A DNA stretch of 64,000 nt from Omnitrophica bacterium GWA2_41_15 (GCA_919902105.1 CAKKQO010000037.1:5598-69597), one strand, 5' to 3'; shown: positions 7,646 through 28,705, counted from the first letter of the stretch. Numbers and translations: made by a program. The notes: generated by a model not told the origin, from the sequence alone.

Positions 7646-9778
7646 TTATATTTCTTGTTTTAAGCCGGCTGTTTTTTGCCATAATTCAATTACTTTGTCT
7701 ATATTTTTATTGTTAGCAAAATATTCTTCTATTTTCTTAGAGGCGGTTATTCCCATTTCTTTTGCCCTCTCTGGATTATCTATAAGATCACTAATCCTGT
7801 CCGCCATTGTCCGGTAATCCTTTTGTTCAACTATAAAACCGTTTTCCCCATCAGCGATTAAGTCTCTTGCCCCGGCAAATTTAGTTACAACAACGGCTCT
7901 ACCTGCCGCCATTGCCTCAGCCATAGCAATACAGGTTCCCTCAAATATAGAGGGCACGACATATACGTCGCATGCTGAAAGATATTGCGGTATTTTCATA
8001 TGCGGAATATTTCCAGTGAATACTACGTTATTGCTTATTTCTAACTCTAAAGCGCTTCTTTTTAAAAAATCTCCCTGGCTTCCTGAGCCGCCGATTAATA
8101 AAAGCGTGGATGGCCGGCTGTTTAGGACCAGCTTAAATGCCTTAAATAGCGTGGGGATGTCTTTCTGCTGCACAAGACGTCCAGCAAATAGGATTAATTT
8201 GTCGTACTTGCCATTTAAGTACTGTGCCCTTATATTTTGCCCATCCACCCCTTTAAACTTTGAAAGGTCGGCATTTACCGGTATAACAGATATCTTATCC
8301 TGTTTAATTCGCAGCTTATCTGCCAGTTTTTCTTTTTCGTATTTTGTGCCTACCCGTATAGTATCTGCCCTTTTTAGGATAAATTTACCTAAAATATTAA
8401 AAAATTTATTAATTTTTCTTAAATTTATCCAGTATTGATTATCGCAAAAGTCAATATGCGTCTGCACATTTAAAGGTATTTTAAAGCATTTTTTGAGCAA
8501 ATAACCTATAATGCCTGTTGTAAAAGGGTCTTCTGCCGTGATAGCATTAATCTCATTACTTTTGCATATTCGGGATGCAATTTTAAACGCGTCTAAAATA
8601 AATAAACACTTATTTTTTGAATTGGTCGGATAAATATAAAGATTATCTGCCCATTGTTCTTTTTTAAGAGCTAATTCTTTAGGGGAATAGACCACTTGAT
8701 GAAAACTGCCTAAGCGCTTAGCATAGTCAAGTTGCCTTGCTCGCACGTCTCCTCTTACATTATCATCTCTTAACATGAGGTAATCTAGTCCTATGCCCAA
8801 AACATTGGGCATATCAATGTGTCTATTTTGCTGATCAGGAGATTCTCTAAATTGCTTATGCAGATTTACCCCGTATTTGACACCTTTTATAAAATATATG
8901 AATGTTTGTGTATCGCCTTTTAACAGTGCGCTTATGCATCTCATCAGCCATCCGCAAGATAACCAGATAAAAGAAAGCCAAGCAGTGATGCTATGGGAAA
9001 AGTTTTTTAGGAATATATATGTCCAGCTGGAAGCCTCTAAGAAGATACATCTTTGTCTCGTGTGAGGGTTCCGTTCATTTCCTTCTGGGTTATGGATTAG
9101 CCGTGCTCTTGTCGTAATCGCTAAAGGATGTTTTTTAGCAATCCTTAAGCTTAAATCTATATCTTCTCCAAAAGAATATCCGTCCATAATTTTATCAAAG
9201 GTATCATCAAATTTTTCTAAGGTAATAACCTCTCTTTTGTATGAAGAACAGCCGCCGGATAACTTATTCGTGTATATGGGGTTGTGGTATTTATTAAAAT
9301 CTGCGAATATCTTTTTGCGATTATCACGAAAAATTCCCAAGCAGAAAATTTCGTTAAATATTTTAATATTGAAGTTATTGAGAGATTTCTTATTGGTAAT
9401 AACTCCCCCTACACCTGCAAGATCCGGATATTCCTTATAGGTATTAAGACTTTCTTTGATAAAATCTTTATCTAAAACCACGTCATCATCAAAGAAAAAA
9501 ATTATATCGCCTGTTGCTAATTCTATAGCCCTATTTCTTGCCTGAGCGGCCCCTGTTATTTTTGTATCAAGTATGTATTTTAAGCTAATTTTATTTTCCG
9601 CATTATTGTTATAGTTGCTGATTAGATTTTCTGCGATTAACTTAGATTCATCGTTTCTACTCTGGTCAACGATTATTACTTCATCCGGGATTTGGCTCTG
9701 GAGCAACAGACTTTTAAGCATCTCAGTTAAGTCTTTTGGGCGGTTCAGCGTGGGGAGTATTATGGATATTTTTTCCAT
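7646..9778 (-). CDS. Bifunctional glycosyltransferase: N-terminal GT2 domain plus C-terminal GT4 domain
   Basis: N-terminus ISIILPTLNRPKDLTEML...VIIVDQS is GT2-like. C-terminus EGTCIAMAEAMAAGRAVVVT...GENGFIV is GT4-like. Confidence 0.75.
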   Translation of the reverse strand: MEKISIILPTLNRPKDLTEMLKSLLLQSQIPDEVIIVDQSRNDESKLIAENLISNYNNNAENKISLKYILDTKITGAAQARNRAIELATGDIIFFFDDDVVLDKDFIKESLNTYKEYPDLAGVGGVITNKKSLNNFNIKIFNEIFCLGIFRDNRKKIFADFNKYHNPIYTNKLSGGCSSYKREVITLEKFDDTFDKIMDGYSFGEDIDLSLRIAKKHPLAITTRARLIHNPEGNERNPHTRQRCIFLEASSWTYIFLKNFSHSITAWLSFIWLSCGWLMRCISALLKGDTQTFIYFIKGVKYGVNLHKQFRESPDQQNRHIDMPNVLGIGLDYLMLRDDNVRGDVRARQLDYAKRLGSFHQVVYSPKELALKKEQWADNLYIYPTNSKNKCLFILDAFKIASRICKSNEINAITAEDPFTTGIIGYLLKKCFKIPLNVQTHIDFCDNQYWINLRKINKFFNILGKFILKRADTIRVGTKYEKEKLADKLRIKQDKISVIPVNADLSKFKGVDGQNIRAQYLNGKYDKLILFAGRLVQQKDIPTLFKAFKLVLNSRPSTLLLIGGSGSQGDFLKRSALELEISNNVVFTGNIPHMKIPQYLSACDVYVVPSIFEGTCIAMAEAMAAGRAVVVTKFAGARDLIADGENGFIVEQKDYRTMADRISDLIDNPERAKEMGITASKKIEEYFANNKNIDKVIELWQKTAGLKQEI

Positions 9779-9781
9779 TTT

Positions 9782-10783
9782 TTATTTATCTTTAAAATAC
9801 GCTTTTAATTTACGAAGCTTTATCTGCGCAGAAATCGGCAACAAGGAAGCCAATAATAATAGGTATGCAACTGATGGTAATTGGCGATAGCGTATGCTAT
9901 CTAAAAATGCATTACGTGCTTGTTTAATTTTTAAATTTCGCAGATAATGGCGCCCTAATTCCAAATAATCCAAAAAAATCTTATTTTTAATTATTTTGAT
10001 TGTTACTGAATCAATTTGTTTCATTTTGTTATTTTTTAACTCATCATTAAGTATTGCTATTCTAAGCTGTGCACCCTTGGCAATATATTGCTCATAGTTT
10101 TTCGTTAAATTACTTTGCATTGTTTTATAGCAGCTCAGAGCTTCATTTATAAATCCAACCTTGTATTTTCTAATTATGCGTATCCAGAAATCCACATCTT
10201 CGGCAATGGAAATATCAGTGCGGAACATTCCGATATCGTTAATTATATTTTTCTTAAGCATTACTGTTCCCGTCCAAATAGGCCAAATTGTGAATTTTAA
10301 ATAGTCATTATAAAAATTGGAATTAAATATTAAGCACCCGTTATCTTTGTATTCTATTGAATTATTGAGCTTATTCATAAAATTTAAGCTTTTTAATCGT
10401 GCGTTTCTGGAATTAGCGTTTTCACAGATATAATCTGTGAAGAGCATATCCAAATTGCTATATTTTTCAAGAAAATCTACCCTTTTAAGCAAGCTATTTT
10501 CCAGTAGAACGTCATCTGAGTCAAGAAAGCATATATATTTACCTTGGGCTTGGTTTATGCCGGTATTTCTTGCCGCGCCCGGCCCTTGATTTTCCTGATA
10601 AATGTATTTTATTAATCCCTTTTCGATATAAGGCGATAAAGCATCTTTTGTATTATCTGTAGAGCCGTCATCAACTACGATAATTTCATAATCTTTGAAT
10701 GATTGGTTTAAAATGCTCTCAATCGCCTCATTAATGTATTTAGCGCAGTTATAGGTTGGAACAATTATGCTTAGTTTGGTCAT
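9782..10783 (-). CDS. GT2 family glycosyltransferase
   Basis: LSIIVPTYNCAKYINEAIESILNQSFKDYEIIVVDDGSTDNT. Its first roughly 25 codons are duplicated at 12231-12313 and 13278-13334. Confidence 0.8.
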   Translation of the reverse strand: MTKLSIIVPTYNCAKYINEAIESILNQSFKDYEIIVVDDGSTDNTKDALSPYIEKGLIKYIYQENQGPGAARNTGINQAQGKYICFLDSDDVLLENSLLKRVDFLEKYSNLDMLFTDYICENANSRNARLKSLNFMNKLNNSIEYKDNGCLIFNSNFYNDYLKFTIWPIWTGTVMLKKNIINDIGMFRTDISIAEDVDFWIRIIRKYKVGFINEALSCYKTMQSNLTKNYEQYIAKGAQLRIAILNDELKNNKMKQIDSVTIKIIKNKIFLDYLELGRHYLRNLKIKQARNAFLDSIRYRQLPSVAYLLLLASLLPISAQIKLRKLKAYFKDK

Positions 10784-11415
10784 TCTTTTATCTGAGATTC
10801 AAGAATGCGCTCTAATTTTTTGTTTACGCAAAGGCGAATCTTAGGATCATTTATTGCTCTTACCCACTCTTTTGCCTTTTTGAAACTAAACTTTTTTGAG
10901 AAATGTAGTTCTGGAAAGTAGCTGAACTGTTTTTTTTTGCGCGCCGAAACATATAGGCAATCTATAAGCGCCTTTTCTGGTTCTGCTATCAAGAATTTTC
11001 CGCTGTCTCTATACCAATTAAATCCTTTAAAAAATGATGGTGCTATCCTGTGTATGTGAAATACCCCTAATTTTGTAGCAATTGTTTTACTATGCGATAT
11101 TGAAGCCAAGGTTATCGTCTGTGGTATTTGCTCTATAATATCGTGAAGATGTAAGGCGCTTGTAAAGGAAAGATAAACGCGCTGGCTGGGAAGCAAAAAA
11201 GGTATAACTGAATAGGGACTTATTTTTTCATTACCGATATCGAGCGCCCATACTCCTCGCGATATCTTTAGGATTATTCCTTTTTTTTCAAGATGATTAA
11301 GCGTTTGGATAGAATTGGATAGCGTTTTGCCGGCTGCTGCTGCCGCTTCGCGGGTAGTAAAAACGGACCTTTTGAGCTGTTTAATCGCTGTCAAAATTGG
11401 CGTATTATTATGCAT
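10780..11415 (-). CDS. AbiEi-like antitoxin/transcriptional regulator (type IV toxin-antitoxin system)
   Basis: N-terminal winged-HTH region FTTREAAAAAGKTLSNSIQTLNHLEKKGIILKISRGVWAL is typical of AbiEi. It is adjacent to the AbiEii gene with an 8-nt overlap. Confidence 0.65.
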   Translation of the reverse strand: MHNNTPILTAIKQLKRSVFTTREAAAAAGKTLSNSIQTLNHLEKKGIILKISRGVWALDIGNEKISPYSVIPFLLPSQRVYLSFTSALHLHDIIEQIPQTITLASISHSKTIATKLGVFHIHRIAPSFFKGFNWYRDSGKFLIAEPEKALIDCLYVSARKKKQFSYFPELHFSKKFSFKKAKEWVRAINDPKIRLCVNKKLERILESQIKE

Positions 11416-12184
11416 TCCTTTTTATCTCCTCAATAAAATTTGATACTCTTATCTTGATTGCATCCCAAGCGTCTGCTTTAGCATATGCGAGCTGATCATC
11501 GGACGATAAATAAGATACTGCTGTGTCACGGAATTGATTAAAAGTTACATGAGAGACATTTTCTTTTGCTCTTATTAATAAGGATTGCCCGATTTTTTGC
11601 TTTTTACCTTCATATTGCGTGGTTAGGATATAAAGGTCAAAGACATCACGTGCCTGAATGGCAGCTCTCATAACCAATGCTTCTATTTTTTGCGCTATCG
11701 CGGAATTGATGCTGTAGTGAGGAATCAATAATGGTGGCATTTTATACGCGCGTAGAATGTTATCTGAAACCGGCTGGGTAATTGTTTCGCCTTTAAAACC
11801 ACGCCTTGAGAATTCTACTTTTGTAAATAAGTCTTCACCGGAATATGTTAAAAGATGAACCTTAAAACGTTGTGTTGTTTCAGTTTGTTTTGCTTTGGAA
11901 ATATCAGGTGGAAGTACCTTTTCTATTCCAAAAGATTTGAGCGTTTCCTGAAAAGATACCGCCGTAAGAATTTTCATAACCGTATCCTTAAGCCATTCTA
12001 CCTTTACGCCGGAGATATCTAAGTCCATATCCTCGGAATAACGAAAGCTGTTAAAGAAAAAACGCAGGTTTACCCCGCCTTTAAGCGCATAGTTCTCAGG
12101 ACTAGCTTTTTTTGTCAGCCATCTTAGGAATTCAAGGTGAAAAATTTCTCTTAATTGCAGCTGATTATAAATTGTCTGTCCCAT
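11408..12184 (-). CDS. AbiEii/AbiGii-family nucleotidyltransferase toxin (type IV toxin-antitoxin system)
   Basis: ALKGGVNLRFFF...RYSEDMDLDI matches the GGTAL...RxSxDLDF signature of PF08843. Confidence 0.75.
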   Translation of the reverse strand: MGQTIYNQLQLREIFHLEFLRWLTKKASPENYALKGGVNLRFFFNSFRYSEDMDLDISGVKVEWLKDTVMKILTAVSFQETLKSFGIEKVLPPDISKAKQTETTQRFKVHLLTYSGEDLFTKVEFSRRGFKGETITQPVSDNILRAYKMPPLLIPHYSINSAIAQKIEALVMRAAIQARDVFDLYILTTQYEGKKQKIGQSLLIRAKENVSHVTFNQFRDTAVSYLSSDDQLAYAKADAWDAIKIRVSNFIEEIKRNA

Positions 12185-12230
12185 AATATGTATTATAATT
12201 TAGTTTTAACTAAATTTCAAGATATAATTG

Positions 12231-12313
12231 GCTCAAAATGCTCTCAATCGCCTCAGGAATGTATTTAGCGCAGTTATAGGTTGGAACAATTATGCTTAGT
12301 TTGGTCATTTTAG
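12231..12313. repeat. Direct repeat copy B of the 5' end of GT2 gene 9782-10783, containing a truncated pseudo-start MTKLSIIVPTYNCAKYIPEAIESIL
   Basis: About 75 nt nearly identical (2 mismatches) to 10706-10790. Confidence 0.85.
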
Positions 12314-12334
12314 CTGGCAATATATTTTCATTTC

Positions 12335-12364
12335 TTGACATTTGTCTTCTTTGTATCGTATAAT
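12335..12364 (+). promoter_or_regulatory. Sigma-70-type promoter for mntA/hepT: TTGACA, 18-nt spacer, TATAAT
   Basis: ttgaca tttgtcttctttgtatcg tataat, followed by the RBS gaggtaaaag and the ATG at 12385. Confidence 0.6.
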
Positions 12365-12384
12365 CTATATAGTTGAGGTAAAAG

Positions 12385-12795
12385 ATGACGCCTATAAAAA
12401 TTGATAACCAAATATTTGAAAAACTTAATGTAAAACTTGTCTACCTTTTTGGTTCGCGCGCCAAGGGTAATTTCGTAAAAGAAAGCGATTTTGATATCGC
12501 CGTACTTTTTAAAAAAAAACCGTCTGACCCTTTAGCGCTGAAAGAAGTTTCGATCCTTTCGCATAAATTAAGCAAGTTTTTTCCTGCAAAAATTGATATT
12601 GTGAGCTTAAATCAATCATCGTCATTGCTTAAATATGAAGCCATAGCCTCCGGACGCCCTTTATATTGCAGCAGCGAATCCGAGCGGATTAATTTTGAGG
12701 TCTCCGTATTAAAAGAGTATATTGACGAACAGTTTATGCGTGATATATACTTTAAGGCAATGAAAAAGCGCGTTAATAAAGGAGCCTTTTCGTGA
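12385..12795 (+). CDS. mntA: MntA-type minimal nucleotidyltransferase antitoxin
   Basis: LVYLFGSRAKGNFVKESDFDIAVLF matches the GSxxxG...DxD motif. GTGA overlap with the downstream hepT. Confidence 0.75.
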   Translation: MTPIKIDNQIFEKLNVKLVYLFGSRAKGNFVKESDFDIAVLFKKKPSDPLALKEVSILSHKLSKFFPAKIDIVSLNQSSSLLKYEAIASGRPLYCSSESERINFEVSVLKEYIDEQFMRDIYFKAMKKRVNKGAFS

Positions 12796-13214
12796 TTAAT
12801 TCCGAAATAATCAAAGAACGTTTAAAAGAGATAGACGAAAACATTAAAATACTATCAGACCTGAAAAAAATGTCTTTAAAAAGTTTCATTTCTGATGTCA
12901 AAACCTGCAAGGCGGCTGAACGCTGTCTTGAGGTAAGCATACAGTGCGTTATTGATATTTGCCATCATATTATTGCCGCCAGAAATTGGCCGCGGCCAAA
13001 AGACAGCCGCGAGGCAATTATAACTATAGGTCAAAGAGGTATTATCCCCCTTACTTTTTCTAAACGTATACAGCCGATGGCCGGATTGAGAAATATTCTC
13101 GTCCATGAATATATTAAAGTTGATCCAGTTATTATTTACAAGCATCTTCGCCGCCTCGCGGATTTCCGTAAATTTCAGAAATATATCATTATTTATCTTC
13201 AAAAACACACCTAA
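12792..13214 (+). CDS. hepT: HepT (DUF86/HEPN) toxin
   Basis: The HEPN Rx4-6H motif is present as LRNILVHEY. GTG start overlapping the mntA stop. Confidence 0.75.
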   Translation: MINSEIIKERLKEIDENIKILSDLKKMSLKSFISDVKTCKAAERCLEVSIQCVIDICHHIIAARNWPRPKDSREAIITIGQRGIIPLTFSKRIQPMAGLRNILVHEYIKVDPVIIYKHLRRLADFRKFQKYIIIYLQKHT

Positions 13215-13277
13215 TTTTTTTCTATCGCTGCGGTTTATTGTTTATCGTTTTGCTTCATTTGATGACGCGTTAACATA

Positions 13278-13334
13278 AATGTACTTAGCGCAGTTATATG
13301 TGGGGACAATTATGCTTAGTTTGGTCATTTTTTA
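13278..13334. repeat. Direct repeat copy C of the GT2 5' end (MTKLSIIVPTYNCAKYI...), more diverged
   Basis: About 52 nt with 5 mismatches against 10739-10790 and 12262-12313. Confidence 0.8.
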
Positions 13335-13340
13335 TAGGGG

Positions 13341-14270
13341 TTAAATAATATTTTTTTGTATCCGCGCTGCCATTTTACCAAGGTGGCGCGCGCAGCGGCA
13401 TCCATACTTAAGCCTATCATAGCTTTTCCGGGCAAGCATAAACTTAATGCCATCTTCTATAAATGCCTTGATAAACCATAGAGGTATGCCCAGCGGGTAA
13501 TAAAATTTAACCCTTTTATCTTCAAATAAATCCCAAAGTTTTCCTCTGCGATAGAACCAGCCATAAAAATATTTTGGGGAAAGACGATTTGTCGGTATCT
13601 TGTGAAGTATTTTAATATCCGGATTATACAATCCTTTTACTCCCGCTCTTAGAAATCTACTGCAGATTTCAGTATCATGCGCATTTATCATCCTTGTATC
13701 AAAACCTCCGTAAGTATCAAATAACTTTTTTTTAAAGGCAAAATTGTTTCCAAAAAATAATCTTTGCGAATCCGATTCAAAAATTATAGGCTTATCTCCA
13801 TAGTCCAGAATACCAAGGGGGCCTAAAAAATAATCACCAAACCAATTCGGCCTGCTCTCGTTTGGCCATAAAGGCAGGGATTTACCACCTACCATGTTTA
13901 TTCCGGAGTTGTCGCCGTTAAAAGATTTCGCTATGTTAAGTAACCAATATTTATCAATGATGCAGTCATCATCAGTAAAGGCGATTACCTCGCCTTTTGC
14001 TTGCGCTATTCCTTTATTCAAAGCGTAAGGCTTTCCCTGTCTTGGTTCAAATAAATATTTTAACTTTCCATTAGATCTACTTTTATAGCTTTCTACTGTT
14101 TCTTTTGTTTTATCGTTTGAGTTGTTATCTGCAACTATTACTTCGTATTCGTAACTTCCATCGCAATCTTGTTTAACAAGACTCTCTAAAGTCTCTTTTA
14201 AGCTTTCAGAACGGTTGTAGGTTGCGATGATTACGCTGATAAAACTTCTTCTCTTTGCTATATTTGGCAT
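13341..14270 (-). CDS. GT2 family glycosyltransferase
   Basis: SVIIATYNRSESLKETLESLVKQ...VIAFTDDDCIIDKYW. Confidence 0.8.
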   Translation of the reverse strand: MPNIAKRRSFISVIIATYNRSESLKETLESLVKQDCDGSYEYEVIVADNNSNDKTKETVESYKSRSNGKLKYLFEPRQGKPYALNKGIAQAKGEVIAFTDDDCIIDKYWLLNIAKSFNGDNSGINMVGGKSLPLWPNESRPNWFGDYFLGPLGILDYGDKPIIFESDSQRLFFGNNFAFKKKLFDTYGGFDTRMINAHDTEICSRFLRAGVKGLYNPDIKILHKIPTNRLSPKYFYGWFYRRGKLWDLFEDKRVKFYYPLGIPLWFIKAFIEDGIKFMLARKSYDRLKYGCRCARHLGKMAARIQKNII

Positions 14271-15247
14271 AATATTTTACTTTCTTCATTACTTTCTAAA
14301 ACGTATTTATATCCCATAGAGGCGCATCTGCAAATTTCTCCGGAACACTTTTTAGGTGCGTCAAATAGGTTTATTTGGCCATCATACAAATTTCCCAAAT
14401 ACTGCTTATCTCCATAGCATCTGTATATGTCACCCATAGAAGTCATTATTACAAATTTACTTCCCGCGTTACAGTATCTACCTTTAAAATCGGGGAGTCC
14501 CTGAATACAAAATCTATCAAACCATATATCGGAAAGTTTTAATCTTTGTAAATTCTCATCTTGGGTAATATTCGAATTGCTATCGCTCTGGCTTCTTTCT
14601 ATGTATGATTTAATTTTTTCTTGTTCCTGCTTAGAATAGGCATTAGGATAGAGATGACTAAAAAAAGGCATTATTTTCTTAAAAAACCTTGAATCCATTA
14701 GTTTGAATCTTGTGCACATGCCTTTGAATACTTTCGGCCATAGTATTATTCCTTTTGACTTAAAGTAGTTATAATCATTTTCAAATCGGTTTATTAAATA
14801 CGGATACATCAAATATGAGGCAAATACACAAAATCCCTTTTTTTGTAAAATTTGATATTTTCCTATGAAGTCTTGTACCAGATTCAATCTTTCTCTTTCT
14901 TCGATATGCAAGCTGCAATGAATGGAACTCACCTTTTCTGGTTTAATAGTTTCAGCAAAACGGAATATATCTTTGTGGCTTAAATTTGTATTAATACTTA
15001 CAATATGTTGTCTGCATAACTTATCACATAATTTTACAAAATCAGGAACAAAAAATGGTTCTCCTCCCGTAAAACCAATCAACCAGGTTAAGCCTGTTTT
15101 ATTGAAGTTATTGACTACTTTATCAATATCTTTTGGGCCAATAAAACAACTTTTTTTATCCTTTTTATCTAAGCAATAAATACATTCAAAATTACAGAAG
15201 TCATTAATATGCCAATCTACCTCTACATCATATATATCGTAATTCAT
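14258..15247 (-). CDS. Radical SAM protein with a C-terminal SPASM-like Cys cluster
   Basis: CNFECIYC is the CxxxCxxC motif. The C-terminus carries CNAGSKF...CSGEICRC cysteines. Confidence 0.7.
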   Translation of the reverse strand: MNYDIYDVEVDWHINDFCNFECIYCLDKKDKKSCFIGPKDIDKVVNNFNKTGLTWLIGFTGGEPFFVPDFVKLCDKLCRQHIVSINTNLSHKDIFRFAETIKPEKVSSIHCSLHIEERERLNLVQDFIGKYQILQKKGFCVFASYLMYPYLINRFENDYNYFKSKGIILWPKVFKGMCTRFKLMDSRFFKKIMPFFSHLYPNAYSKQEQEKIKSYIERSQSDSNSNITQDENLQRLKLSDIWFDRFCIQGLPDFKGRYCNAGSKFVIMTSMGDIYRCYGDKQYLGNLYDGQINLFDAPKKCSGEICRCASMGYKYVLESNEESKILCQI

Positions 15248-16422
15248 TTGTGGGTCACCATTTCCTCTGTTTTCGTATTAGGCGTAAGATTGCTTAAGTG
15301 TAACTCTATATTAGGAAGCCTGGTTGCTTCATATAGCCGAGCAGAAAATGTAATTTTATCTATATTGGTTCCATCTCTCTGTGGTGATTCTAAATTTAAA
15401 TAGTTATCCATCTGTTTTTCAATCCAATATTTTAAGGATTCCTCATTATTTTTGAGACTTAAAATATTTCTAAAAATATATAAAGCATAGGCGATTTCAA
15501 AACCGAGTGGATTATATGTCCAAGTATATTTGTTTTTATTCGCTTCTTTAAGAAATTGCTCCTTTTGAATATAAATAATTATTTCTTGAATTATTTTTTT
15601 AAACCGTTTATTATCCCACCATCTCTCATCTGGAGCATTGTCATAGGCTAAAGCAAACGCATATAAATTAAAGGGCAAATAGCCAATAGAAAGCTCTTTA
15701 ATCCTGGCAGGAGAACATCTGTGTTTTAGCACCCTTTTTATATAGATTTTTAATCCGGATAATCTATTCAAAGATAAAGAATTACTAAAATATTTTGGTA
15801 TTTCATGTATTATGAGTCCCGGCTCCATAAAAAATAGATTCTTGCGGATATTCATGAAAAAATCTCTCGAACGGTGCAATAACTCTTCATTATTATTTTT
15901 TTTACCAGCGATAAGATTTATAGTAGCAAACCAGAGCTGCTGATTGAAAGTAGGATTAATGCTACCAATATTTCCATCGATATCAAGATTATGCCATAAA
16001 TGCATTTTTTCATCATATTTATGTTTTAATAGCGTATCTTCTGCCGCAGAGAGATAGTCTTTGCGTCCCAACTCTTTTCCTATAAATAGCCATGGCTCTA
16101 TTGCCCAGGCTTGGCCGATCAGGCCATTTGCCTTATCTTCGCCTTCGGATAATCTGCATAAAAATGATGCGTTGTATGGCCTTGCATCTTTAGATAAGAG
16201 ATAATCACAAGCCGATATAGCAGCTTTTAAAAATCGGAATTCTTTTGATATTTCATATGCCTTATAAAAGGCTAATGCCCAATGAGCTGTGTTTCTTACA
16301 GGCGTATCAATATCATTCCACGGCCCATTATTGCCTGCAGGCATACTCCCATCTTCTTTCTGTGTTTTTAACTGAACTTGAGCGGTTTTAAGAATAAAAT
16401 CGTACAAAAATATATTATTCAT
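15244..16422 (-). CDS. Hypothetical protein (392 aa), possibly an alpha/alpha-toroid carbohydrate-active fold
   Basis: No diagnostic motif recognised. The N-terminal roughly 35 codons are duplicated at 17863-17963. Confidence 0.3.
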   Translation of the reverse strand: MNNIFLYDFILKTAQVQLKTQKEDGSMPAGNNGPWNDIDTPVRNTAHWALAFYKAYEISKEFRFLKAAISACDYLLSKDARPYNASFLCRLSEGEDKANGLIGQAWAIEPWLFIGKELGRKDYLSAAEDTLLKHKYDEKMHLWHNLDIDGNIGSINPTFNQQLWFATINLIAGKKNNNEELLHRSRDFFMNIRKNLFFMEPGLIIHEIPKYFSNSLSLNRLSGLKIYIKRVLKHRCSPARIKELSIGYLPFNLYAFALAYDNAPDERWWDNKRFKKIIQEIIIYIQKEQFLKEANKNKYTWTYNPLGFEIAYALYIFRNILSLKNNEESLKYWIEKQMDNYLNLESPQRDGTNIDKITFSARLYEATRLPNIELHLSNLTPNTKTEEMVTHK

Positions 16423-16431
16423 ATAAAACTA

Positions 16432-17823
16432 TTACATATAACCCAAGGCAACGAGTTGATGCTTGATTTTATCAATATTTATGTCGGATTCTTTGATAGT
16501 TTTCATTTCTCTAAAACTTTTAAGGTTTAAATTTTTGGAAAGTTTATATAATTCGTCGCGCATAGATAATTCTAGGTTACAAACATTTTCTCTCTCTTTC
16601 GGATCTTTCGATATGCAATACAGCTCTATCGGGTTATTGTCTTTATCCAATATTAATTTCCATTCATTAGTCCTTACGCACCTAATAAATTCCGGAACCT
16701 CATATCCTAACCGAGGCGGTAAATCTCCGATATTTTTATTCGGGTCTTTTCCTGTTTCACTTATAACAAAAGAAGTAGAATTATGAGTAGATGTTTTTAT
16801 TAAAGATAAAAGACTCCTGCCATCTGAAGTATGTTTATATTTTGCGTCTAAGATTTCTAAGATGGTCGCGGGTATGTCAACAAGAGAAACAACTTTATCA
16901 ATCTTTTTTCCCGAATTAATAAAAGGAATATACACAAGTAAGGGTATGCGAATAAGCTCTTCGTACAAAGTCCTAATATGTCCAAGCTGGCCATGCTCCA
17001 TAAATTCTTCACCGTGATCAGAAGTAATAATGATAATTGTTTTTTCGATAAGATGTAACTCTTCCAGCTTTTGGACTACCTTTTTTATTAAAAAATCTGT
17101 ATATTTAATCTCTCCATCATATTTCGCAATTATAAACTCTAAATCTTCTTTATTTTTAAGCGGTTCCCAAGCATAAATTGATTTCCTATTAGTATTGTAA
17201 GTTGAGCGCATGCCCTTTGAATAAATATCAAACTTCCTCGGCGGATTAAATGGTACGTGACAATTAAAGCCATGAAGAAAAAGAAAAAATGGTAATTTCT
17301 TATGTCTTTCCAGCCATCCAAAACAATCCCTTAAATTGTCTTCAAAACGACTTCCTTTGCTTCTATAAGTAGAAAAACCGCGATTAAAACCGAAATTCGC
17401 AGAAACATAACCACCCCCATGAAAACCTGCCGTATTGTAACCGCTTTGATTTAATATCTCGGCTAAAGTCTTGATTTCTTCTGGCAGGATACCTGGCCGG
17501 GGCGACTGGACCAAGCCGAGTCGAGAAGCATACATTCCGGTAAACAGTGAAGCATGCGCAGGAACTGTCCATGCTGAAGTGCTAAAGGCATTAGTAAAAA
17601 GTGCACATCTTTGAGAAAATTCGTCTATGTATGGAGACGTATTCCTTTCGTATCCATAGCAACTTAAGTGATCGGCCCTTAACGTATCTATAGAAATTAA
17701 AATAACATTGTATTTATTTGCTAAGTTACCAGAACGATTATTTTTTATCTTAATGGTTCGCGCTATATGCTGATTTTTCATTGTATTTACTTTATGTTTA
17801 AAGCTATCAATAGCATTATTCAT
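16432..17823 (-). CDS. Sulfatase-fold (PF00884-like) hydrolase/transferase whose nucleophile motif is TVPAH instead of CTPSR
   Basis: LISIDTLRADHLSCYGY...FTNAFSTSAWTVPAHASLFTGMYASRLG aligns to the arylsulfatase motif CTPSRAALLTGRY with Cys to Thr and Arg to His. The ATG at 17823 is preferred over the TTG the ORF track uses at 17832. Confidence 0.65.
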   Translation of the reverse strand: MNNAIDSFKHKVNTMKNQHIARTIKIKNNRSGNLANKYNVILISIDTLRADHLSCYGYERNTSPYIDEFSQRCALFTNAFSTSAWTVPAHASLFTGMYASRLGLVQSPRPGILPEEIKTLAEILNQSGYNTAGFHGGGYVSANFGFNRGFSTYRSKGSRFEDNLRDCFGWLERHKKLPFFLFLHGFNCHVPFNPPRKFDIYSKGMRSTYNTNRKSIYAWEPLKNKEDLEFIIAKYDGEIKYTDFLIKKVVQKLEELHLIEKTIIIITSDHGEEFMEHGQLGHIRTLYEELIRIPLLVYIPFINSGKKIDKVVSLVDIPATILEILDAKYKHTSDGRSLLSLIKTSTHNSTSFVISETGKDPNKNIGDLPPRLGYEVPEFIRCVRTNEWKLILDKDNNPIELYCISKDPKERENVCNLELSMRDELYKLSKNLNLKSFREMKTIKESDINIDKIKHQLVALGYM

Positions 17824-17862
17824 ATTAATCAATATAACCCAGTTCTTCTAATTTATTCTTTG

Positions 17863-17963
17863 GGCCGTTATTGCCTGCAGGCATACTGCCATCGTCATTT
17901 TGTGCTTTTAATTGCGCCTGGGCGCTCTTAATAATAATATCGTATAAAAACATAATATTGCTC
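17863..17963. repeat. Diverged duplicate of the 5' end of gene 15244-16422, encoding remnant MFLYDIIIKSAQAQLKAQNDDGSMPAGNNGP...
   Basis: About 100 nt at about 75% identity to 16322-16422, including the 20-nt identical core ttattgcctgcaggcatact. Confidence 0.75.
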
Positions 17964-21053: not shown

Positions 21054-21078
21054 TACGATATCCCTTCTGTGTTTGTTA

Positions 21079-21166
21079 TGATGCCTCCGGCAGAGATATT
21101 TTCGTTTTTCACCAATACAAAACGGCTTATTTCGCGGATATTTTTAAATGTGTCAATTACTATCGC
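21079..21166. repeat. Diverged duplicate of the 3' end of cysN (compare 22711-22799), lying directly upstream of gene 19773-21053 and ending in a TAATG stop/start overlap
   Basis: About 88 nt at about 80% identity. Encodes ...[29 protein letters not shown]. Confidence 0.8.
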
Positions 21167-21178
21167 GCGCGGGGGCGT

Positions 21179-21982
21179 TCAGCTGAGCAAGTTAATAAAA
21201 GTGCGAGATTCAAGCAATCTAAGCTCATTTTGATCCTCAAGAAACCTGCCCACGTCATCTCTAGCCTTAGCCCAATCTAACGCTTCAACGACCTTCTTAA
21301 TTTCTGTTTTCCAGTTCTGGGTATTAAGCGTAATAAAATTTTTCTGTGTTTGAGCCATTGCATTGTTTAGCATAATGTAATTGGGTTCTATACCTTTAAA
21401 TTTAGCCAGATACCACATTAAATCATACCAATCCCTTCCTTTTGTATATTCACGGCATAAAAGCGCGTGGACTTTTCCCGCCAGTAATGAAGGCAGGTCA
21501 TAATGCAGTGCATAGAACATAAACGTTGATTTATATACTGAATTTGTTTCTACTCCTCCACGGGGAGGATTTGTATCAATTTCTATTTTAATAATAATTT
21601 TTTGATCCTTTAACGGGCTGAGGCCGGTTTCATAAAGAATCCCTGAAAATTTTAGCAAAGCGCTGTGCACTGTCCGCTCACTGTTGTGTTTAATGTTTAA
21701 ATCGTAACCAGCTAAATTGAATTCCTGTTGAATTTGACTAATCATCGGATTAAAATCATAATTTTTAGCCCTATTTGATAGACTAAAATCAATGTCTTCT
21801 GAGAATCGCCTAATCTGGTGAACAAAACGCAGAGCTGTGCCGCCGGTAAAAACAAGATTTTGATAAAATTTTGTTTTGTAGACAACGTACAAGAAATAGG
21901 CCTGTAAATATTCTCTTACCCTATTTAAATTATTATTAAGGGTTAATTTAGGATCAACGACTGACTTAATGTAATCTCTCAT
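21179..21982 (-). CDS. AbiEii/AbiGii-family nucleotidyltransferase toxin
   Basis: FTGGTALRFVHQIRRFSEDIDFSLS matches the PF08843 signature. Confidence 0.75.
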   Translation of the reverse strand: MRDYIKSVVDPKLTLNNNLNRVREYLQAYFLYVVYKTKFYQNLVFTGGTALRFVHQIRRFSEDIDFSLSNRAKNYDFNPMISQIQQEFNLAGYDLNIKHNSERTVHSALLKFSGILYETGLSPLKDQKIIIKIEIDTNPPRGGVETNSVYKSTFMFYALHYDLPSLLAGKVHALLCREYTKGRDWYDLMWYLAKFKGIEPNYIMLNNAMAQTQKNFITLNTQNWKTEIKKVVEALDWAKARDDVGRFLEDQNELRLLESRTFINLLS

Positions 21983-22620
21983 TTTAAAGTTTTATATCGT
22001 TTCTTTTCCAGCCTACTGAATTTCATAAAAGACCGGGCAATATTATTAGTTTTCTTGTTATATCTTAACCTTAATTCGTTAAAACGCTTAAAATTAAGAA
22101 TCTCAGAGTTCTGGAACCTGTAAGATTCAAATTCGCTTTCCACCCCTTTTAAATCTTGATGAAAATAAAAAAAATCAAGAAGAGCCTTTTCAGGATAAGC
22201 GATGAAGTAATTCTCTCCGCTATCAACCATTTTGGTATATCCGCCAAAAACGCTTTCTTTAACTGAACGATACTCAAAAGTACCGATCGGGGTATTATAA
22301 GTTGTCGTTTTCTTAGATGTGACTGAAGTATAAACCGTAACTTTTTCCGGAATAATGTCGTAGTAGCCCAAAGCGTATTCAAGACTCACGTATGACGGAG
22401 AAAGTAGAAAGTTTGAAATAAAACCCATTGATAAAGGTTTTTTACGTAAGTCTTCATTTAGCAGGTAAACACCTCTCTTAAGCGGAATAAGATGTCCGCG
22501 CTTAAGCCAATATTGCACTTCACAGCGAAGCATTTGGAGATTTCCTCCGTGCAAAGCGAAAGTGGAGGAATCAATAATTGGATATTCGCTATATTTTTTT
22601 ACGAACTCTGCAAGTTTCAT
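21979..22620 (-). CDS. AbiEi-like antitoxin (type IV toxin-antitoxin system)
   Basis: LKRGHLIPLKRGVYLL...SLEYALGYYDII is typical of the AbiEi N-terminal domain. ATGA overlap with the downstream AbiEii gene. Confidence 0.65.
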   Translation of the reverse strand: MKLAEFVKKYSEYPIIDSSTFALHGGNLQMLRCEVQYWLKRGHLIPLKRGVYLLNEDLRKKPLSMGFISNFLLSPSYVSLEYALGYYDIIPEKVTVYTSVTSKKTTTYNTPIGTFEYRSVKESVFGGYTKMVDSGENYFIAYPEKALLDFFYFHQDLKGVESEFESYRFQNSEILNFKRFNELRLRYNKKTNNIARSFMKFSRLEKKRYKTLK

Positions 22621-22694: not shown

Positions 22695-23984
22695 TCATTC
22701 GATATTAGTGATTATGCCGCCGGCGGAAATATTCTCGTTTTTTACCAATACAAAGCGCCCTATCTCGCGGGTGTTTTTAAAGGTGTCAATTACTATCGGC
22801 TTTTTGGTTTTGATGGTTACTTCGCCGATTTCAAGGTTTTCTAAATTTTGCGCGTCTGTTTCTATTAACTCTAAACTTGATGAGTTAATCCGTCTATGTA
22901 TCGCTTCAATCTTACAGCTTATTTCTTGCGTTGCGCAGCGCAATAAAACCTTCTCATCCTTGTTGTAGCCCTGTTTAGACATCCAGAAGACGCTTGTCTG
23001 GAATGTATCCGATACTTTCGGCTCTTTGCCTTTCTCGCATAATACATTACCTCTGTCTAAGAATACCGCGTCTTCTGTGGTTATGCCTGTGCTTTCTTGC
23101 GCAGATGCAGATTTAGCATCGCTTAAGAATTTTTCAATGCTTTTTACCCTCGTAATCTGCCCTTCAGGCAGCACTTTAACAACCTGTCCTTCTTTTATCG
23201 CCCCTGTCTCAACTCTGCCTACGATAATGCGTTTATCGTCTATCTTATATATATCCTGCACAGGAAAGATAAGCGGCTGGTTTTCTAAAGGCGCTTTATT
23301 CTTAAGTTGGCTAAGCCCTTCTAACATTGTCGGCCCTTTATACCAAGGCATATTGGTTGATTTATTGGCAATATTGTCGCCTTTTAAGGCAGAGATGGGT
23401 ATGTAGAGTTTCGGGGTTATGTTTAAGGTAATTAAGAACTTTCCTATCTTAGTTTTTAGTTCTATGTATTTTTCTGCATTAAAATCTATCAAATCCACCT
23501 TATTTATGAGGACGATTACCTGTTCTATTCCCAGCATAGAAAGGATAGTAGCGTGGCGCTTGGTCTGTTCTTGTATTCCTTCCTTGGCATCAATTATTAA
23601 AATAGCTGCCTCTGCCTGAGAGGCGCCGGTAATCATATTTTTTACGAATTCCACATGGCCCGGAGCATCAATGATTACGTATTCTTTCTTGTCTGTTTTA
23701 AAGAAGACTTGGGTTGTATCTATGGTGATGCCTTGTCGGCGCTCTTCTTCTAAATGGTCAAGAAGATAGGCGAATTCCGTATCTCTGCCTAATTCTTGGG
23801 AAGTTTTCCTTATCTCCTCCATTTTATCCGGAGGTAGAGAATTAGTATCGTAGAGCAGGCGGCCGATTAAGGTTGACTTTCCGTGGTCAACGTGTCCGAC
23901 GATGACGAATTTTAGCGACCGTTCGTCGCAGTTCGTGGTTCGTTGTTCTTTGTTCGTTGCTTGATTGTAATGCTCGCTAGTCAT
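22695..23984 (-). CDS. cysN: Sulfate adenylyltransferase subunit 1 (GTPase)
   Basis: [15 protein letters not shown] (G1 box plus the CysN-specific KSTLIGRLL), DAPGH and NKVD motifs. 429 aa with no fused APS-kinase domain. Confidence 0.85.
23921..23968. repeat. GTTCGT-rich segment (4 copies about 10 nt apart) overlapping the cysN 5' end; imperfect inverted partner of 24361-24405
   Basis: ccgttcgtcgcagttcgtggttcgttgttctttgttcgttgc. The partner's reverse complement is tttgttcgtagttcgtcgttcttagttcttcgtt. Confidence 0.5.
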
Positions 23985-24355
23985 AGAGTCCTCTTTGAAT
24001 TTTTAATATATTTGATGAAGCCTCCGATAAGGTTTTTCACTTGCGAACACTTTTGATACATTTCTTCAAATTGTGCATCCTCTATATATTTTTGTTCCAA
24101 AGCAATATAAAGATGAGATTGTATTTCCGAACATGAGCGCTGGCTGTAGCTTAAGAACTTAGCAAATTCTAGATTAGATGAGCAGTCAAAGCCCTCTGCG
24201 ATATTCGCCATTACCGATATGCCAGCTTTCCTGATTTGTTCAACCAAGGCGTAATCTACCTTAAATCTATTTTCTTTGCTGACCTTATATATAAGGCCGA
24301 CTAATATTTTTGCCTCTTGCCATGATTTAATTTCTTCAAATTTAGTAATTTTCAT
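23981..24355 (-). CDS. Four-helix-bundle protein (23S rRNA intervening-sequence protein family, PF05635-like)
   Basis: A 124-aa helical protein resembling the family encoded in 23S rRNA intervening sequences and common in glycan loci. It sits between cysD and cysN and is flanked by ACGAAC/GTTCGT-rich inverted repeats. Confidence 0.55.
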
Positions 24356-27242: not shown

Positions 27243-27298
27243 CTCTTAAAATCATCATCCAAACGTTCAATGTCATCTTCTTCCAAGTAGCTTCCGCT
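27243..27298. repeat. Duplicate of the manC 3' end (compare 28710-28765), encoding ...QSGSYLEEDDIERLDDDF
   Basis: About 56 nt with 4-5 mismatches. Confidence 0.8.
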
Positions 27299-27365
27299 CT
27301 GGATTTCGCCTTGTAACGCTGCGCCTGCCAAACTGAATTCGGACAAGTAGACGTAATGAACTGTG

Positions 27366-28608: not shown

Positions 28609-28705
28609 ACAATTGTTTGTATAAATTCATACAACTTCTTGTATATAATTATACAACATATTTGATATCTTGTCAAGGTCTTTGCTAGTGGAATCTGAAG
28701 CGCAG

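What the first reader, a model, noticed from the sequence alone, without database searches (positions are those of the whole stretch)
10706..13334. Three copies of the GT2 gene start (MTKLSIIVPTYNCAKYI...) bracket two toxin-antitoxin cassettes like a cassette array
The 5' end of GT2 gene 9782-10783, including its ATG, is repeated at 12231-12313 (2 mismatches in 75 nt) and at 13278-13334 (5 mismatches in 52 nt). Between copies A and B lies AbiEii/AbiEi; between B and C lies MntA/HepT on the opposite strand with its own sigma-70 promoter. Copies B and C retain start codons but run into stop codons after about 30 codons. This looks like serial insertion into one hotspot, each event regenerating the GT2 start.
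Basis: seen in the sequence. Interest (0 to 1): 0.75.

Follow-up and report, generated by a model that had tools for sequence, protein, structure and literature searches.

The report
Gene-start stubs flank inserted toxin-antitoxin cassettes
Two small toxin-antitoxin modules were inserted one after the other in front of a sugar-transferase gene of a groundwater Omnitrophota bacterium, each event leaving a short dead copy of the gene's start, and the same footprint marks many other small cassettes in this and related genomes.

Summary
The first about 82-86 nt (copy B) and 54 nt (copy C) of GT2 gene 9782-10783(-) are repeated upstream, and bracket an AbiEii/AbiEi module and an oppositely oriented MntA/HepT module. 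Each module has a near-consensus sigma-70-type promoter. Independent assemblies show the same junctions. Two relatives (L065, L066) have the upstream GT2 gene directly abutting this GT2 gene, so the cassettes are insertions.

It is not a site-specific array. The repeat has no hairpin, no recombinase is seen nearby, and at least three other gene termini in the window carry their own 65-105 nt stub on the far side of a 1.5 kb cassette. The signature recurs in about 80 metagenomic loci with the same AbiE family, at about 12 times the background density.

Stub and functional copies differ mainly at third codon positions (53 of 69). They are therefore alleles, not decaying target-site duplications.

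Best explanation: homology-anchored insertion-duplication. Foreign DNA carrying a cassette plus a short piece of the neighbouring conserved gene integrates into that gene, by single crossover of a small circle or an HFIR-like event. The mechanism is inferred. The closest known analogues are Rhs/T6SS displacement arrays. I rate it a new variant of a known kind, of moderate interest.

The parts
13341..14270 (-). Upstream GT2 gene (GT2_up), the native left neighbour of the target gene
   Evidence: Pfam Glycos_transf_2. Its C-terminus is homologous to the gene that directly precedes GT2 in cassette-free relatives L065 and L066.
13275..13328 (-). Copy C: outermost orphan stub of the GT2 5' end (54 nt, 28-codon ORF), lying 12 nt after the GT2_up stop
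   Evidence: It has 5 differences from copy A, 4 of them at third codon positions.
12309..13274 (+). MntA/HepT (type VII toxin-antitoxin) cassette, opposite orientation: promoter 12335-12364, MntA-like NTase 12385-12795, HepT 12792-13214, and a 60-nt tail
   Evidence: Pfam Polbeta/NTP_transf_2 and HepT-like. Promoter matches 12/12. The closest non-self HepT is 73% identical.
12224..12308 (-). Copy B: second orphan stub of the GT2 5' end (82-86 nt; 32 codons from its ATG)
   Evidence: Its last 6 nt (AATTAT) overlap the conserved left end of the AbiE cassette, giving junction microhomology.
10784..12226 (-). AbiEii/AbiEi (type IV toxin-antitoxin) cassette, toxin gene first: promoter 12220-12192 containing the palindrome TTTAGTTAAAACTAAA, AbiEii 11408-12184, AbiEi 10780-11415. 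The AbiEi TGA stop overlaps the GT2 ATG (ATGA).
   Evidence: Pfam. Promoter. The promoter/operator block is conserved in 62 loci from unrelated contexts. The AbiEi C-terminus varies in length among homologues.
9782..10783 (-). Functional GT2 gene; its first 85 nt (10699-10783) are copy A
   Evidence: Pfam Glycos_transf_2, E = 1.5e-38. Synonymous divergence from L065 is mosaic: third-position identity is 96/120 in codons 1-120 against 107/213 in the rest.
17855..17959 (-). Same footprint elsewhere: orphan 5' stub (79% identical) of the 392-aa gene 15244-16422, fused in frame to 12 codons of a sulfatase-like C-terminus. The stub and the functional copy at 16315-16419 bracket sulfatase gene 16432-17832.
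21065..21165 (-). Same footprint: orphan 3' stub (82% identical; 15 of 18 differences at third positions) of GTPase gene 22695-23984. The stub and the functional copy at 22698-22798 bracket a second, unrelated AbiE module at 21179-22620.
27243..27307 (-). Same footprint: orphan 3' stub (91% identical) of manC-like gene 28706-30142. The stub and the functional copy at 28710-28774 bracket a DUF6036 nucleotidyltransferase plus partner module at 27366-28608, which has its own TTGACA-17-TATAAT promoter.

Best explanation
The ancestral arrangement was GT2_up, a spacer of about 12 nt, then GT2, as still seen in relatives. Two foreign DNA pieces integrated here in turn. Each carried a self-contained toxin-antitoxin module plus a short allelic copy of the GT2 5' end, and each used that short piece of GT2 homology to integrate (homology-anchored insertion-duplication). 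The route I think most likely is a small circular molecule (cassette plus gene-end segment) entering by a single crossover within the GT2 5' end. That necessarily yields stub, cassette, intact gene. A second circle entering one of the two copies gives three copies bracketing two cassettes. The intact gene keeps a start codon, the displaced copy is left as a dead stub, and the addictive toxin-antitoxin module resists later loss. Shown here: the insertion polarity, the allelic nature of the stubs, the recurrence of the footprint at other gene termini and in many other genomes, and the absence of att-like features. Inferred: the circular intermediate, the single crossover, and the order of the two events. 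Also inferred: GT2 and downstream genes may now be transcribed from the AbiE promoter, because the MntA/HepT module points against the operon and the AbiEi stop overlaps the GT2 ATG.
For: Cassette-free alleles exist in L065 and L066. Every repeat starts or ends at a gene terminus, where donor and recipient homology would stop, and runs 35-147 nt inward to a variable junction. Differences between stub and functional copy are at third codon positions in 53 of 69 cases, p = 2e-13. The two copies are therefore alleles shaped by purifying selection, as expected if one comes from a donor genome. Copies A and B share a perfect 50-nt block that could support a crossover. The signature is general. The window has 7 such pairs. 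The 80 AbiE loci have 6.1 per 64 kb, against 0.5 per 64 kb in 899 kb of unrelated loci. In a separate test, 9 of 38 non-redundant AbiE contexts exceeded the control 95th percentile, though two of those (L136 low-complexity, L118 a remnant of another AbiEi gene) are doubtful. Cassettes recur next to the same conserved gene in different genomes: a DUF6036 module lies at manC termini in the window, L085 and L105. One 'cassette' is an ordinary sulfatase gene whose imported fragment starts inside a donor coding region, so no toxin-antitoxin-specific machinery is needed. Experimental precedent: a partial duplication of the homologous segment is the product of a single crossover by a recircularised molecule (PMC3240628). 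A circle-plus-single-crossover model was proposed for strings of Rhs core stubs (PMC2935791). Omnitrophota polysaccharide loci are reported as recombinationally hypervariable, and toxin-antitoxin genes as frequent transferred cargo (bioRxiv 10.64898/2026.05.20.726742).
Against: No circular form or donor genome was observed. The closest relatives of these cassettes are only 73-75% identical in protein, so no recent transfer is documented. Some repeat pairs are short and only 79-84% identical (D3, D4), which makes them poor substrates for RecA-type crossover unless they diverged later. The synonymous bias could also arise if stubs recombine with cassette-free alleles in the population. The cassette ends are strikingly tight and reproducible, starting within about 10 nt of the -35 box in dozens of contexts. 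A purely random-fragment model does not predict this without invoking selection for compactness. The 360-nt block of low synonymous divergence at the GT2 5' end is longer than the repeat and fits a linear HFIR-like import better than a crossover confined to 86 nt.
Confidence: 0.5

Rival explanations
1. Linear, HFIR-like import. A linear donor fragment (cassette plus donor GT2 allele) recombines homologously inside or downstream of GT2 and joins illegitimately, at a few bases of microhomology, 54 or about 82 nt into the resident GT2. It replaces the interval and leaves the resident 5' end as a stub. The outcome is the same as for the circle route, but the functional 5' part of GT2 would be donor DNA.
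For: Microhomology is seen at junctions: AAT(T)AT at stub B/AbiE and GAAT at the D3 stub. The D3 insert begins 36 nt before the stop of a donor gene, which looks like a random fragment end. GT2 codons 1-120 are much closer to L065 at synonymous sites than codons 121-333 or GT2_up (96/120 against 107/213, p = 6e-8), as if about 360 nt came in with the cassette. A long anchor tolerates 80% identity better than a 100-nt crossover does. HFIR has been proposed for T6SS orphan immunity arrays (PMC5361080).
Against: Documented HFIR events usually delete recipient DNA rather than duplicate it (PMC3240628). The illegitimate joint would have to fall within 150 nt or less of the gene terminus in every one of more than ten cases. 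Stubs B and C are about as close to L065 as copy A is, so the mosaic block may be an older or unrelated event.
Confidence: 0.27
2. Site-specific integration with accretion. The cassettes would be remnants of, or mobilised in trans by, integrative elements whose attachment site mimics the GT2 5' end. Comparable cases are phage 21 and e14 in icd, CIME/ICE accretion, and tycheposon arrays. On this reading the three copies are attL, a hybrid att, and attR.
For: Direct repeats regenerate an intact target gene, and three copies bracket two units, which is the classic accretion picture. Mostly synonymous differences are also known for gene-end mimics; this rests on my own knowledge of the icd case.
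Against: No integrase or transposase is recorded in window 1-24.4 kb. The units are only 1.0-1.4 kb and hold nothing but a toxin-antitoxin pair and its promoter. The repeat lengths differ (54 against 82-86 nt). At least four different gene termini in 30 kb carry their own repeats. The same AbiE cassette family sits at many unrelated targets. There are no relatives on viral contigs.
Confidence: 0.1
3. True long target-site duplications. A dedicated cut-and-paste or NHEJ-like insertion of precisely bounded cassettes into staggered breaks 35-150 nt apart duplicates the target.
For: Cassette ends are tight and reproducible across contexts. Repeats are target-derived and differ at each site. Some pairs are perfect or nearly so: D8 is 35/35, and L068 has 78 identical nt.
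Against: The repeat boundaries coincide with start or stop codons in all coding cases and never extend into the neighbouring gene, which random staggered cuts would not do. The third-position bias (53/69) is unexpected for a decaying non-coding copy (p = 7e-8 against a generous 45% expectation). There are no terminal inverted repeats and no transposase. A sulfatase gene with a partial foreign gene end behaves the same way.
Confidence: 0.08
4. Artefact or regulatory element. The serial arrangement would be a chimeric assembly of strain variants joined through the repeat, or the repeats would be a conserved leader of GT genes.
For: The source is a metagenome assembly, and one independent assembly breaks contigs in this region.
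Against: Each junction is seen in at least two assemblies, including one contig that spans copy B, MntA/HepT, copy C and GT2_up. The motif occurs only at these three places in 64 kb. The similarity to the next GT gene's start is only 61-71%, at the protein motif IIxPTYN.
Confidence: 0.03

Closest known systems
Rhs / CDI / T6SS 'displacement' arrays (orphan toxin tips or immunity genes, each preceded by a partial copy of the conserved core)
   Same: Both show strings of direct repeats that are partial, variable-length copies of a conserved gene part. Each marks an incoming module that shunted the previous gene end aside. Proposed mechanisms are a circle plus single crossover (PMC2935791) or HFIR (PMC5361080). 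Growth is serial, and the copies are allelic rather than freshly duplicated.
   Different: Here the anchor is the 5' or 3' terminus of ordinary biosynthetic or housekeeping genes (GT2, manC, a GTPase), not a polymorphic-toxin core. The incoming modules are autonomous toxin-antitoxin operons with their own promoters, or once a sulfatase gene. The displaced piece is only a 35-150 nt non-functional stub, so no reservoir of alternative functional ends is created.
Insertion-duplication by single crossover of a circular molecule (Campbell-type integration), as recovered experimentally in E. coli
   Same: The product is homology segment, insert, homology segment, with a partial duplication whose length equals the homology carried by the circle (109-950 bp in PMC3240628).
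   Different: The natural repeats here are shorter (35-147 nt) and diverged. No plasmid or circle was observed, and the cargo is a single toxin-antitoxin module.
Integron cassette arrays and Acinetobacter pdif modules (arrays that often include toxin-antitoxin cassettes)
   Same: Both are arrays of small, promoter-bearing toxin-antitoxin cassettes in either orientation, separated by a repeated sequence.
   Different: Here there is no attC-like hairpin, no dif-like site and no integrase nearby. The repeat is coding sequence of the adjacent gene and differs at every site.
Integrative elements that regenerate the end of a protein or tRNA gene (phage 21 and e14 in icd; CIME accretion; tycheposons)
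   Same: Direct repeats are made of a gene end, the intact gene is preserved, and tandem accretion gives three repeats around two units.
   Different: Those elements depend on a site-specific recombinase with one target per element family. Here no recombinase is present, and the same cassette family is found at many unrelated targets.

Membership tests
Integron gene-cassette array | attC recombination site (imperfect palindrome folding as single-stranded DNA) at each cassette boundary | tested here: not met
   The repeats fold no better than shuffles on either strand (z = 0.7 to 1.2). They are the coding 5' end of GT2.
Integron gene-cassette array | IntI integrase and attI next to the array | tested here: not met
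   The precomputed Pfam lists for all called genes covering window 1-24.4 kb show no integrase or recombinase. The rest of the genome is unavailable.
Site-specific integrative element with accretion (CIME/ICE, tycheposon, icd-type) | Direct repeats made of the target gene's end that leave the gene intact | tested here: met
   GT2 keeps a full ORF with a Glycos_transf_2 domain.
Site-specific integrative element with accretion (CIME/ICE, tycheposon, icd-type) | Tyrosine or serine recombinase in the element or acting on it, and one target specificity per element family | tested here: not met
   No recombinase lies in or near the cassettes. AbiE cassettes with the same conserved promoter lie at unrelated targets in 38 non-redundant contexts.
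Displacement / insertion-duplication arrays (Rhs-type) | Variable-length partial copies of a conserved gene, in direct orientation, next to each incoming module, and serial | tested here: met
   The stubs are 54 and 82-86 nt. Other sites have 35-147 nt.
Displacement / insertion-duplication arrays (Rhs-type) | The copies are alleles from different lineages rather than fresh duplications | tested here: met
   53 of 69 differences are at third codon positions. The caveat is that recombination of stubs with cassette-free alleles could mimic this.
Displacement / insertion-duplication arrays (Rhs-type) | Circular intermediate carrying the module plus a core fragment | not testable with these tools
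   This needs raw reads (outward-facing pairs or split reads) or PCR.
Displacement / insertion-duplication arrays (Rhs-type) | Modules are polymorphic-toxin tips with immunity genes attached to the conserved core | tested here: not met
   The modules are free-standing AbiE and MntA/HepT operons. The locus therefore works like this family but is not a member.
Homology-facilitated illegitimate recombination (HFIR) | One homologous anchor plus one illegitimate joint with 3-10 bp microhomology | tested here: inconclusive
   Possible microhomologies are AAT(T)AT and GAAT. A mosaic block in GT2 codons 1-120 is compatible with an anchor crossover. No donor sequence is available to prove the joints.
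Homology-facilitated illegitimate recombination (HFIR) | The insertion is normally accompanied by a deletion of recipient DNA | tested here: not met
   The recipient DNA is duplicated, not deleted, and GT2_up and GT2 are both intact. The definition is taken from PMC3240628.
Transposon / insertion sequence | Transposase, terminal inverted repeats, and a fixed-length target-site duplication | tested here: not met
   There is no transposase domain and there are no inverted repeats at the cassette ends. The repeat lengths are 54 against 82-86 nt, and 35-147 nt elsewhere.
AbiE (type IV) and MntA/HepT (type VII) toxin-antitoxin systems | Paired AbiEii NTase with AbiEi regulator; paired MNT-type NTase with HepT RNase; autoregulated promoter | tested here: met
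   Pfam PF08843, PF13338, PF18765/PF01909 and PF01934 all score above their cut-offs. A conserved palindrome lies between -35 and -10. Toxicity and neutralisation were not tested.

The most novel reading that the evidence does not exclude
Small toxin-antitoxin operons of Omnitrophota and co-occurring groundwater bacteria may form a recombinase-less class of mobile cassette. Each would travel as a minimal unit (from the -35 box to the stop codon) together with a 35-150 nt 'decoy' copy of the terminus of a conserved host gene. That decoy would serve as a portable homology arm for integration at the orthologous gene in new hosts. Excision by recombination between the two copies would regenerate the circle, and arrays would grow by accretion. 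This would be a natural knock-in system that exploits only host recombination plus toxin-antitoxin addiction.
Probability: 0.2. Interest if true: 0.7.

Novelty: new variant of a known kind. Interest (0 to 1): 0.5.

Why it matters
How chromosomal toxin-antitoxin and defence modules reach the middle of conserved operons without any mobility genes is poorly documented. This locus records two successive events. The wider survey shows a recurrent, easily searchable footprint: a short allelic stub of a neighbouring gene's start or end on the far side of a 1-3 kb cassette. In loci that carry this AbiE family, many of them from groundwater and sediment metagenomes, the footprint is about 12 times more frequent than in unrelated loci. 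If it reflects circle-mediated or one-sided homologous integration, three things follow. It gives a way to date and orient gene gains in uncultured lineages. It explains how addictive modules invade hypervariable polysaccharide loci. And it warns annotators that short 'pseudo-starts' and 'pseudo-ends' are recombination scars rather than regulatory leaders. It also suggests that insertion can rewire operon expression, since GT2 now sits directly behind an autoregulated AbiE promoter.

Tried and rejected
- The genome-contig scan with the GT2 protein found only distant GT2 genes (35% or less over full length).
- Exact-protein look-ups for GT2, GT2_up and HepT returned only the same arrangement, so no alternative allele of the same strain was found.
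- Searches for near-identical copies of the cassettes elsewhere found a best AbiEi match of 75% and a best HepT match of 73%. No recent mobility could be shown.
- The MntA/HepT homologue contexts L158-L166 have no flanking repeats.
- The viral-contig scans for the AbiEi family and for the repeat found nothing.
- The attC-like fold was rejected.
- No terminal inverted repeats lie at the cassette ends.
- GC content is only slightly higher in the cassettes (0.36-0.40 against 0.29-0.35) and is not diagnostic.
- The D8 pair (35 nt perfect, 3726-3760 and 5439-5473 around the Fic gene) does not fit the gene-terminus rule, because it lies about 100 codons inside a gene. It remains unexplained.
- The GT2 mosaic block could not be used to tell native from imported alleles, because stubs B and C are as close to L065 as copy A is.
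- The original HFIR papers (PMC122324, PMC122325) are not held in the library.

Full report
**1. The observation**

On the minus strand the gene order is as follows.

- Radical-SAM gene, 14258-15247.
- GT2_up, 13341-14270.
- Copy C, 13275-13328.
- The MntA/HepT module, which lies on the plus strand at 12385-13214.
- Copy B, 12224-12308.
- AbiEii, 11408-12184.
- AbiEi, 10780-11415.
- GT2, 9782-10783, whose first 85 nt are copy A.
- A GT2-GT4 fusion gene, 7646-9778.

Copy B is identical to copy A for 50 nt from the ATG and then has 4-5 mismatches up to nt 82-86. Copy C has 5 mismatches in 54 nt. A 50-nt probe with up to 3 mismatches is expected 0.00 times by chance.

All three copies start at the start codon. 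Upstream of a shared A-ATG the three sequences are unrelated. B and C hit stop codons after 32 and 28 codons.

The promoters are TTGACA-18-TATAAT (12/12) for MntA/HepT and TTGAAA-17-TATAAT (11/12) for AbiE.

The source is a Candidatus Omnitrophota genome from Hainich groundwater. Independent assemblies reproduce every junction, so this is not a chimeric join.

**2. The cassettes are insertions**

The closest relative found is L065 (Logan SRR22388270). Its GT2 is 77% identical, and the same GT2-GT4 fusion gene follows it. In L065 the GT2_up C-terminus (...GKMAARMQKNII*) is followed by 10 nt and then the GT2 ATG. A second relative, L066 (GT2 53% identical), is also cassette-free. Its second criterion (a common GT leader) fails too, because the motif occurs only three times in the window.

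**3. The same footprint at other gene termini**

A whole-window repeat search found that, apart from a REP-like palindrome family, essentially all significant repeats are direct pairs 1.0-1.7 kb apart that bracket a small cassette.

- A 105-nt 5' stub of the 392-aa gene 15244-16422 lies upstream of a sulfatase gene (79% identity).
- A 101-nt 3' stub of GTPase gene 22695-23984 lies downstream of a second AbiE module (82%). That module is only 24-32% identical to the first AbiE module.
- A 65-nt 3' stub of a manC-like gene lies downstream of a DUF6036 nucleotidyltransferase module (91%).
- A perfect 35-nt pair lies around a Fic gene.

These are documented. Every toxin-antitoxin module is compact, with its own near-consensus promoter starting a few nt from the junction.

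The sulfatase case is informative. After 105 nt of homology, the stub continues in frame into ...KNKLEELGYID*, the C-terminus of a sulfatase/phosphodiesterase-type gene. Compare ...LADLGYI* and ...LVALGYM* of the neighbouring genes. The stop is followed 1 nt later by the sulfatase ATG. The inserted DNA therefore began inside a donor coding region, and no toxin-antitoxin-specific mechanism is required.

**4. The stubs are alleles, not decaying duplications**

Differences between each stub and its functional copy fall overwhelmingly at third codon positions.

| Pair | Differences at codon positions 1 / 2 / 3 |
|---|---|
| D3 | 4 / 4 / 14 |
| D4 | 1 / 2 / 15 |
| D5 | 1 / 0 / 5 |
| Copy A vs copy C | 1 / 0 / 4 |

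With four clear cases from other genomes the total is 53 of 69. This gives p = 2e-13 against one third, and p = 7e-8 against a generous 45% expectation for 'one copy decays freely'.

Copy A vs copy B is the exception, at 1 / 3 / 1. At the five variable positions, the cassette-free relative agrees with B at three and with A at two.

The repeat boundary always coincides with the start or stop codon and never runs on into the neighbouring gene. This is what is expected if the boundary marks where donor and recipient stop being homologous. It is not expected of randomly placed staggered cuts.

One caveat applies. Recombination of a stub with cassette-free alleles in the population could also import synonymous differences.

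**5. Generality**

The AbiEi protein belongs to a large family with the toxin gene first (1523 hits; best non-self 75%). A metagenome scan returned 80 loci. Of 83 loci examined (these 80 plus the window, L067 and L068), 62 share the promoter/operator T[CA]TTG[CA]AATTTAGTTAWAACTAAAYTATAAT. Conservation begins only about 7-10 nt upstream of it, and the contexts beyond that point are unrelated.

I tested 300 nt upstream against 1250-2100 nt downstream of that promoter. Of 38 non-redundant contexts, 9 scored far above the between-locus control (control 95th percentile 26, maximum 50). Two of these nine are doubtful: L136 is low-complexity, and L118 is a remnant of another AbiEi gene.

Examples:

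- The 3' end of an upstream gene is duplicated beyond the cassette in L082, where all 3 differences are synonymous and the orphan keeps the native TAATG stop/start overlap with the next gene. The same occurs in L126 and in L099/L100 (147 nt).
- A duplicated terminator occurs in L123.
- 5' stubs of a manC-like gene (MNNTYAVILAGG...) lie ahead of DUF6036 and AbiE modules in L085 and L105.
- A stub of AbiEi itself lies beyond an AAA_14 gene in L102.

Short, high-identity direct repeats (28-160 nt, at least 80% identical) spaced 0.5-3.5 kb occur at 6.1 per 64 kb in these 400 kb. In 899 kb of unrelated loci fetched with the GT2 query the rate is 0.5 per 64 kb. The window has 7 cassette-bracketing pairs.

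An Omnitrophica genome (L068 and the same locus in nine other samples) shows an array of AbiE, peptidase C1, AAA_14, a DUF6036 pair and a MarR-like gene. Related 48-121 nt segments follow each unit.

**6. Mechanism**

The data fit homology-anchored insertion-duplication. Incoming DNA carries a cassette plus a short allelic piece of the adjacent conserved gene and integrates into that gene.

Two routes give the same product.

- (a) A small circle integrates by a single crossover within the short homology. This is the experimentally recovered source of partial duplications (109-950 bp) in E. coli (PMC3240628). It is also the model proposed for strings of Rhs core stubs (PMC2935791).
- (b) A linear HFIR-like event has its homologous crossover further inside the gene and its illegitimate joint 35-150 nt from the terminus.

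Evidence for (b):

- Junction microhomologies: AAT(T)AT, where stub B overlaps the conserved AATTAT at the AbiE cassette end, and GAAT at the D3 stub.
- A mosaic block. GT2 codons 1-120 match L065 at 96/120 third positions, against 107/213 for the rest of the gene and 0.63 for the end of GT2_up (p = 6e-8).

Evidence for (a):

- Classical HFIR deletes rather than duplicates.
- A 50-nt perfect block is shared by copies A and B.
- The DUF6036 module is recurrently linked with manC termini in three genomes.

I prefer (a) slightly and cannot separate the two routes with these tools.

The three-copy structure follows from a second integration into either existing copy, so the order of the two events is not fixed. 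Because MntA/HepT points against the operon and the AbiEi TGA overlaps the GT2 ATG, GT2 may now depend on the AbiE promoter. This is inference only.

**7. Alternatives rejected or downgraded**

- An integron or attC array: there is no fold and no integrase, and the repeat is site-specific.
- Site-specific accretion: there is no recombinase, there are several different targets within 30 kb, and one cassette family sits at many targets.
- A transposon with target-site duplication: there is no transposase and there are no inverted repeats, the repeat lengths vary, the boundaries sit at codon termini, and the differences show a synonymous bias.
- An assembly artefact: the junctions are replicated.
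- Phage carriage: there are no viral-contig relatives.

One feature is not fully explained by any random-fragment model: cassette ends are very tight and reproducible across dozens of contexts. This keeps a more dedicated, recombinase-less 'hitchhiking cassette' reading alive, at a probability of about 0.2.

**8. Comparison with known systems and novelty**

Functionally the locus works like Rhs/CDI/T6SS displacement arrays and like Campbell-type insertion-duplication. It is not a member of the polymorphic-toxin systems, of integrons, or of integrase-driven islands.

Recent preprints report that Omnitrophota polysaccharide loci are hypervariable and that toxin-antitoxin genes are frequent transferred cargo (10.64898/2026.05.20.726742; 10.64898/2026.06.07.730766). 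They do not mention direct repeats. Four keyword searches returned no paper whose title or abstract describes gene-terminus stubs flanking toxin-antitoxin cassettes; only the HFIR/displacement papers were opened.

**Verdict**

This is a real, well-supported recombination scar and a new variant of a known kind. Interest is moderate at 0.5. It is raised by the breadth of the pattern and limited by the likelihood that ordinary host recombination explains it.

Noticed in passing
window 16315-16419 / 17855-17959; 21065-21165 / 22698-22798; 27243-27307 / 28710-28774: Three further cassette-bracketing direct-repeat pairs, each a gene-terminus stub. They lie around a sulfatase gene, a second AbiE module and a DUF6036 NTase module. 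Stub and functional copies differ mostly at synonymous positions.
   Followed up: yes
window 3726-3760 and 5439-5473: A perfect 35-nt direct repeat (encoding DILRLVPDYSY) lies either side of the DUF4172-Fic gene 4084-5205. One copy sits about 100 codons inside the NTP_transf_2-like gene 3135-4064, so it does not follow the gene-terminus rule. It is unexplained.
   Followed up: partly
window 35846, 36382, 40820, 41522, 44514, 48063, 50171 (each about 38 nt): A REP-like palindromic element, CCATGTAGACCTACGCGGTCTACATGG, is present in at least 7 mostly intergenic copies in both orientations in the second half of the window.
   Followed up: no
window 6535-6581 and 6593-6639: Two adjacent 47-nt repeats (77% identical), each containing the inverted motif AGTTACCATAC...GTATGGTAACT, lie just upstream of the DUF6788/NTP_transf_8 pair. 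They may be an operator or a small RNA.
   Followed up: no
window 3135-6530: A dense run of toxin-antitoxin or defence-like genes sits inside the polysaccharide locus: an NTP_transf_2-like gene, DUF4172-Fic, and NTP_transf_8 with DUF6788. A 23S_rRNA_IVP four-helix gene lies at 23981-24355.
   Followed up: partly
L068 5200-10900 (Omnitrophica RIFCSPLOWO2_02_FULL_45_16; the same locus in L069-L077): An array of AbiE, peptidase C1, AAA_14/DUF4143, a DUF6036 pair and a MarR-like gene. Related 48-121 nt segments (encoding ..GYRIAADEIDNYIS..) follow each unit. The 121-nt pair around the DUF6036 module is identical for 78 nt, and its last 10-nt patch differs between samples, which suggests conversion between the copies.
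   Followed up: partly
window 27243-28774; L085 2156-3530; L105 896-3978: DUF6036 nucleotidyltransferase toxin-antitoxin modules sit at a terminus of a manC-like (mannose-1-phosphate guanylyltransferase) gene in three different genomes. Each has a manC stub on the far side.
   Followed up: partly
window 12187-12226 and 62 of the 83 loci examined (window, L067, L068, L078-L157): This AbiE family has the toxin gene first (AbiEii then AbiEi). Its promoter is more conserved than its proteins, and it carries the perfect palindrome TTTAGTTAWAACTAAA between -35 and -10, presumably the AbiEi operator.
   Followed up: partly
window 9782-10783 compared with L065 158-1159: The GT2 gene is a mosaic relative to the cassette-free relative. 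Third-position identity is 0.73-0.90 in codons 1-120, drops abruptly to 0.30-0.37 in codons 121-180, and is about 0.6 after that.
   Followed up: partly
protein hit lists: Many contigs carrying AbiEi or HepT homologues are about the length of one cassette (1.0-1.7 kb). This could reflect assembly breaks at variable cassette borders, or it could simply reflect the short-contig bias of the collection.
   Followed up: no
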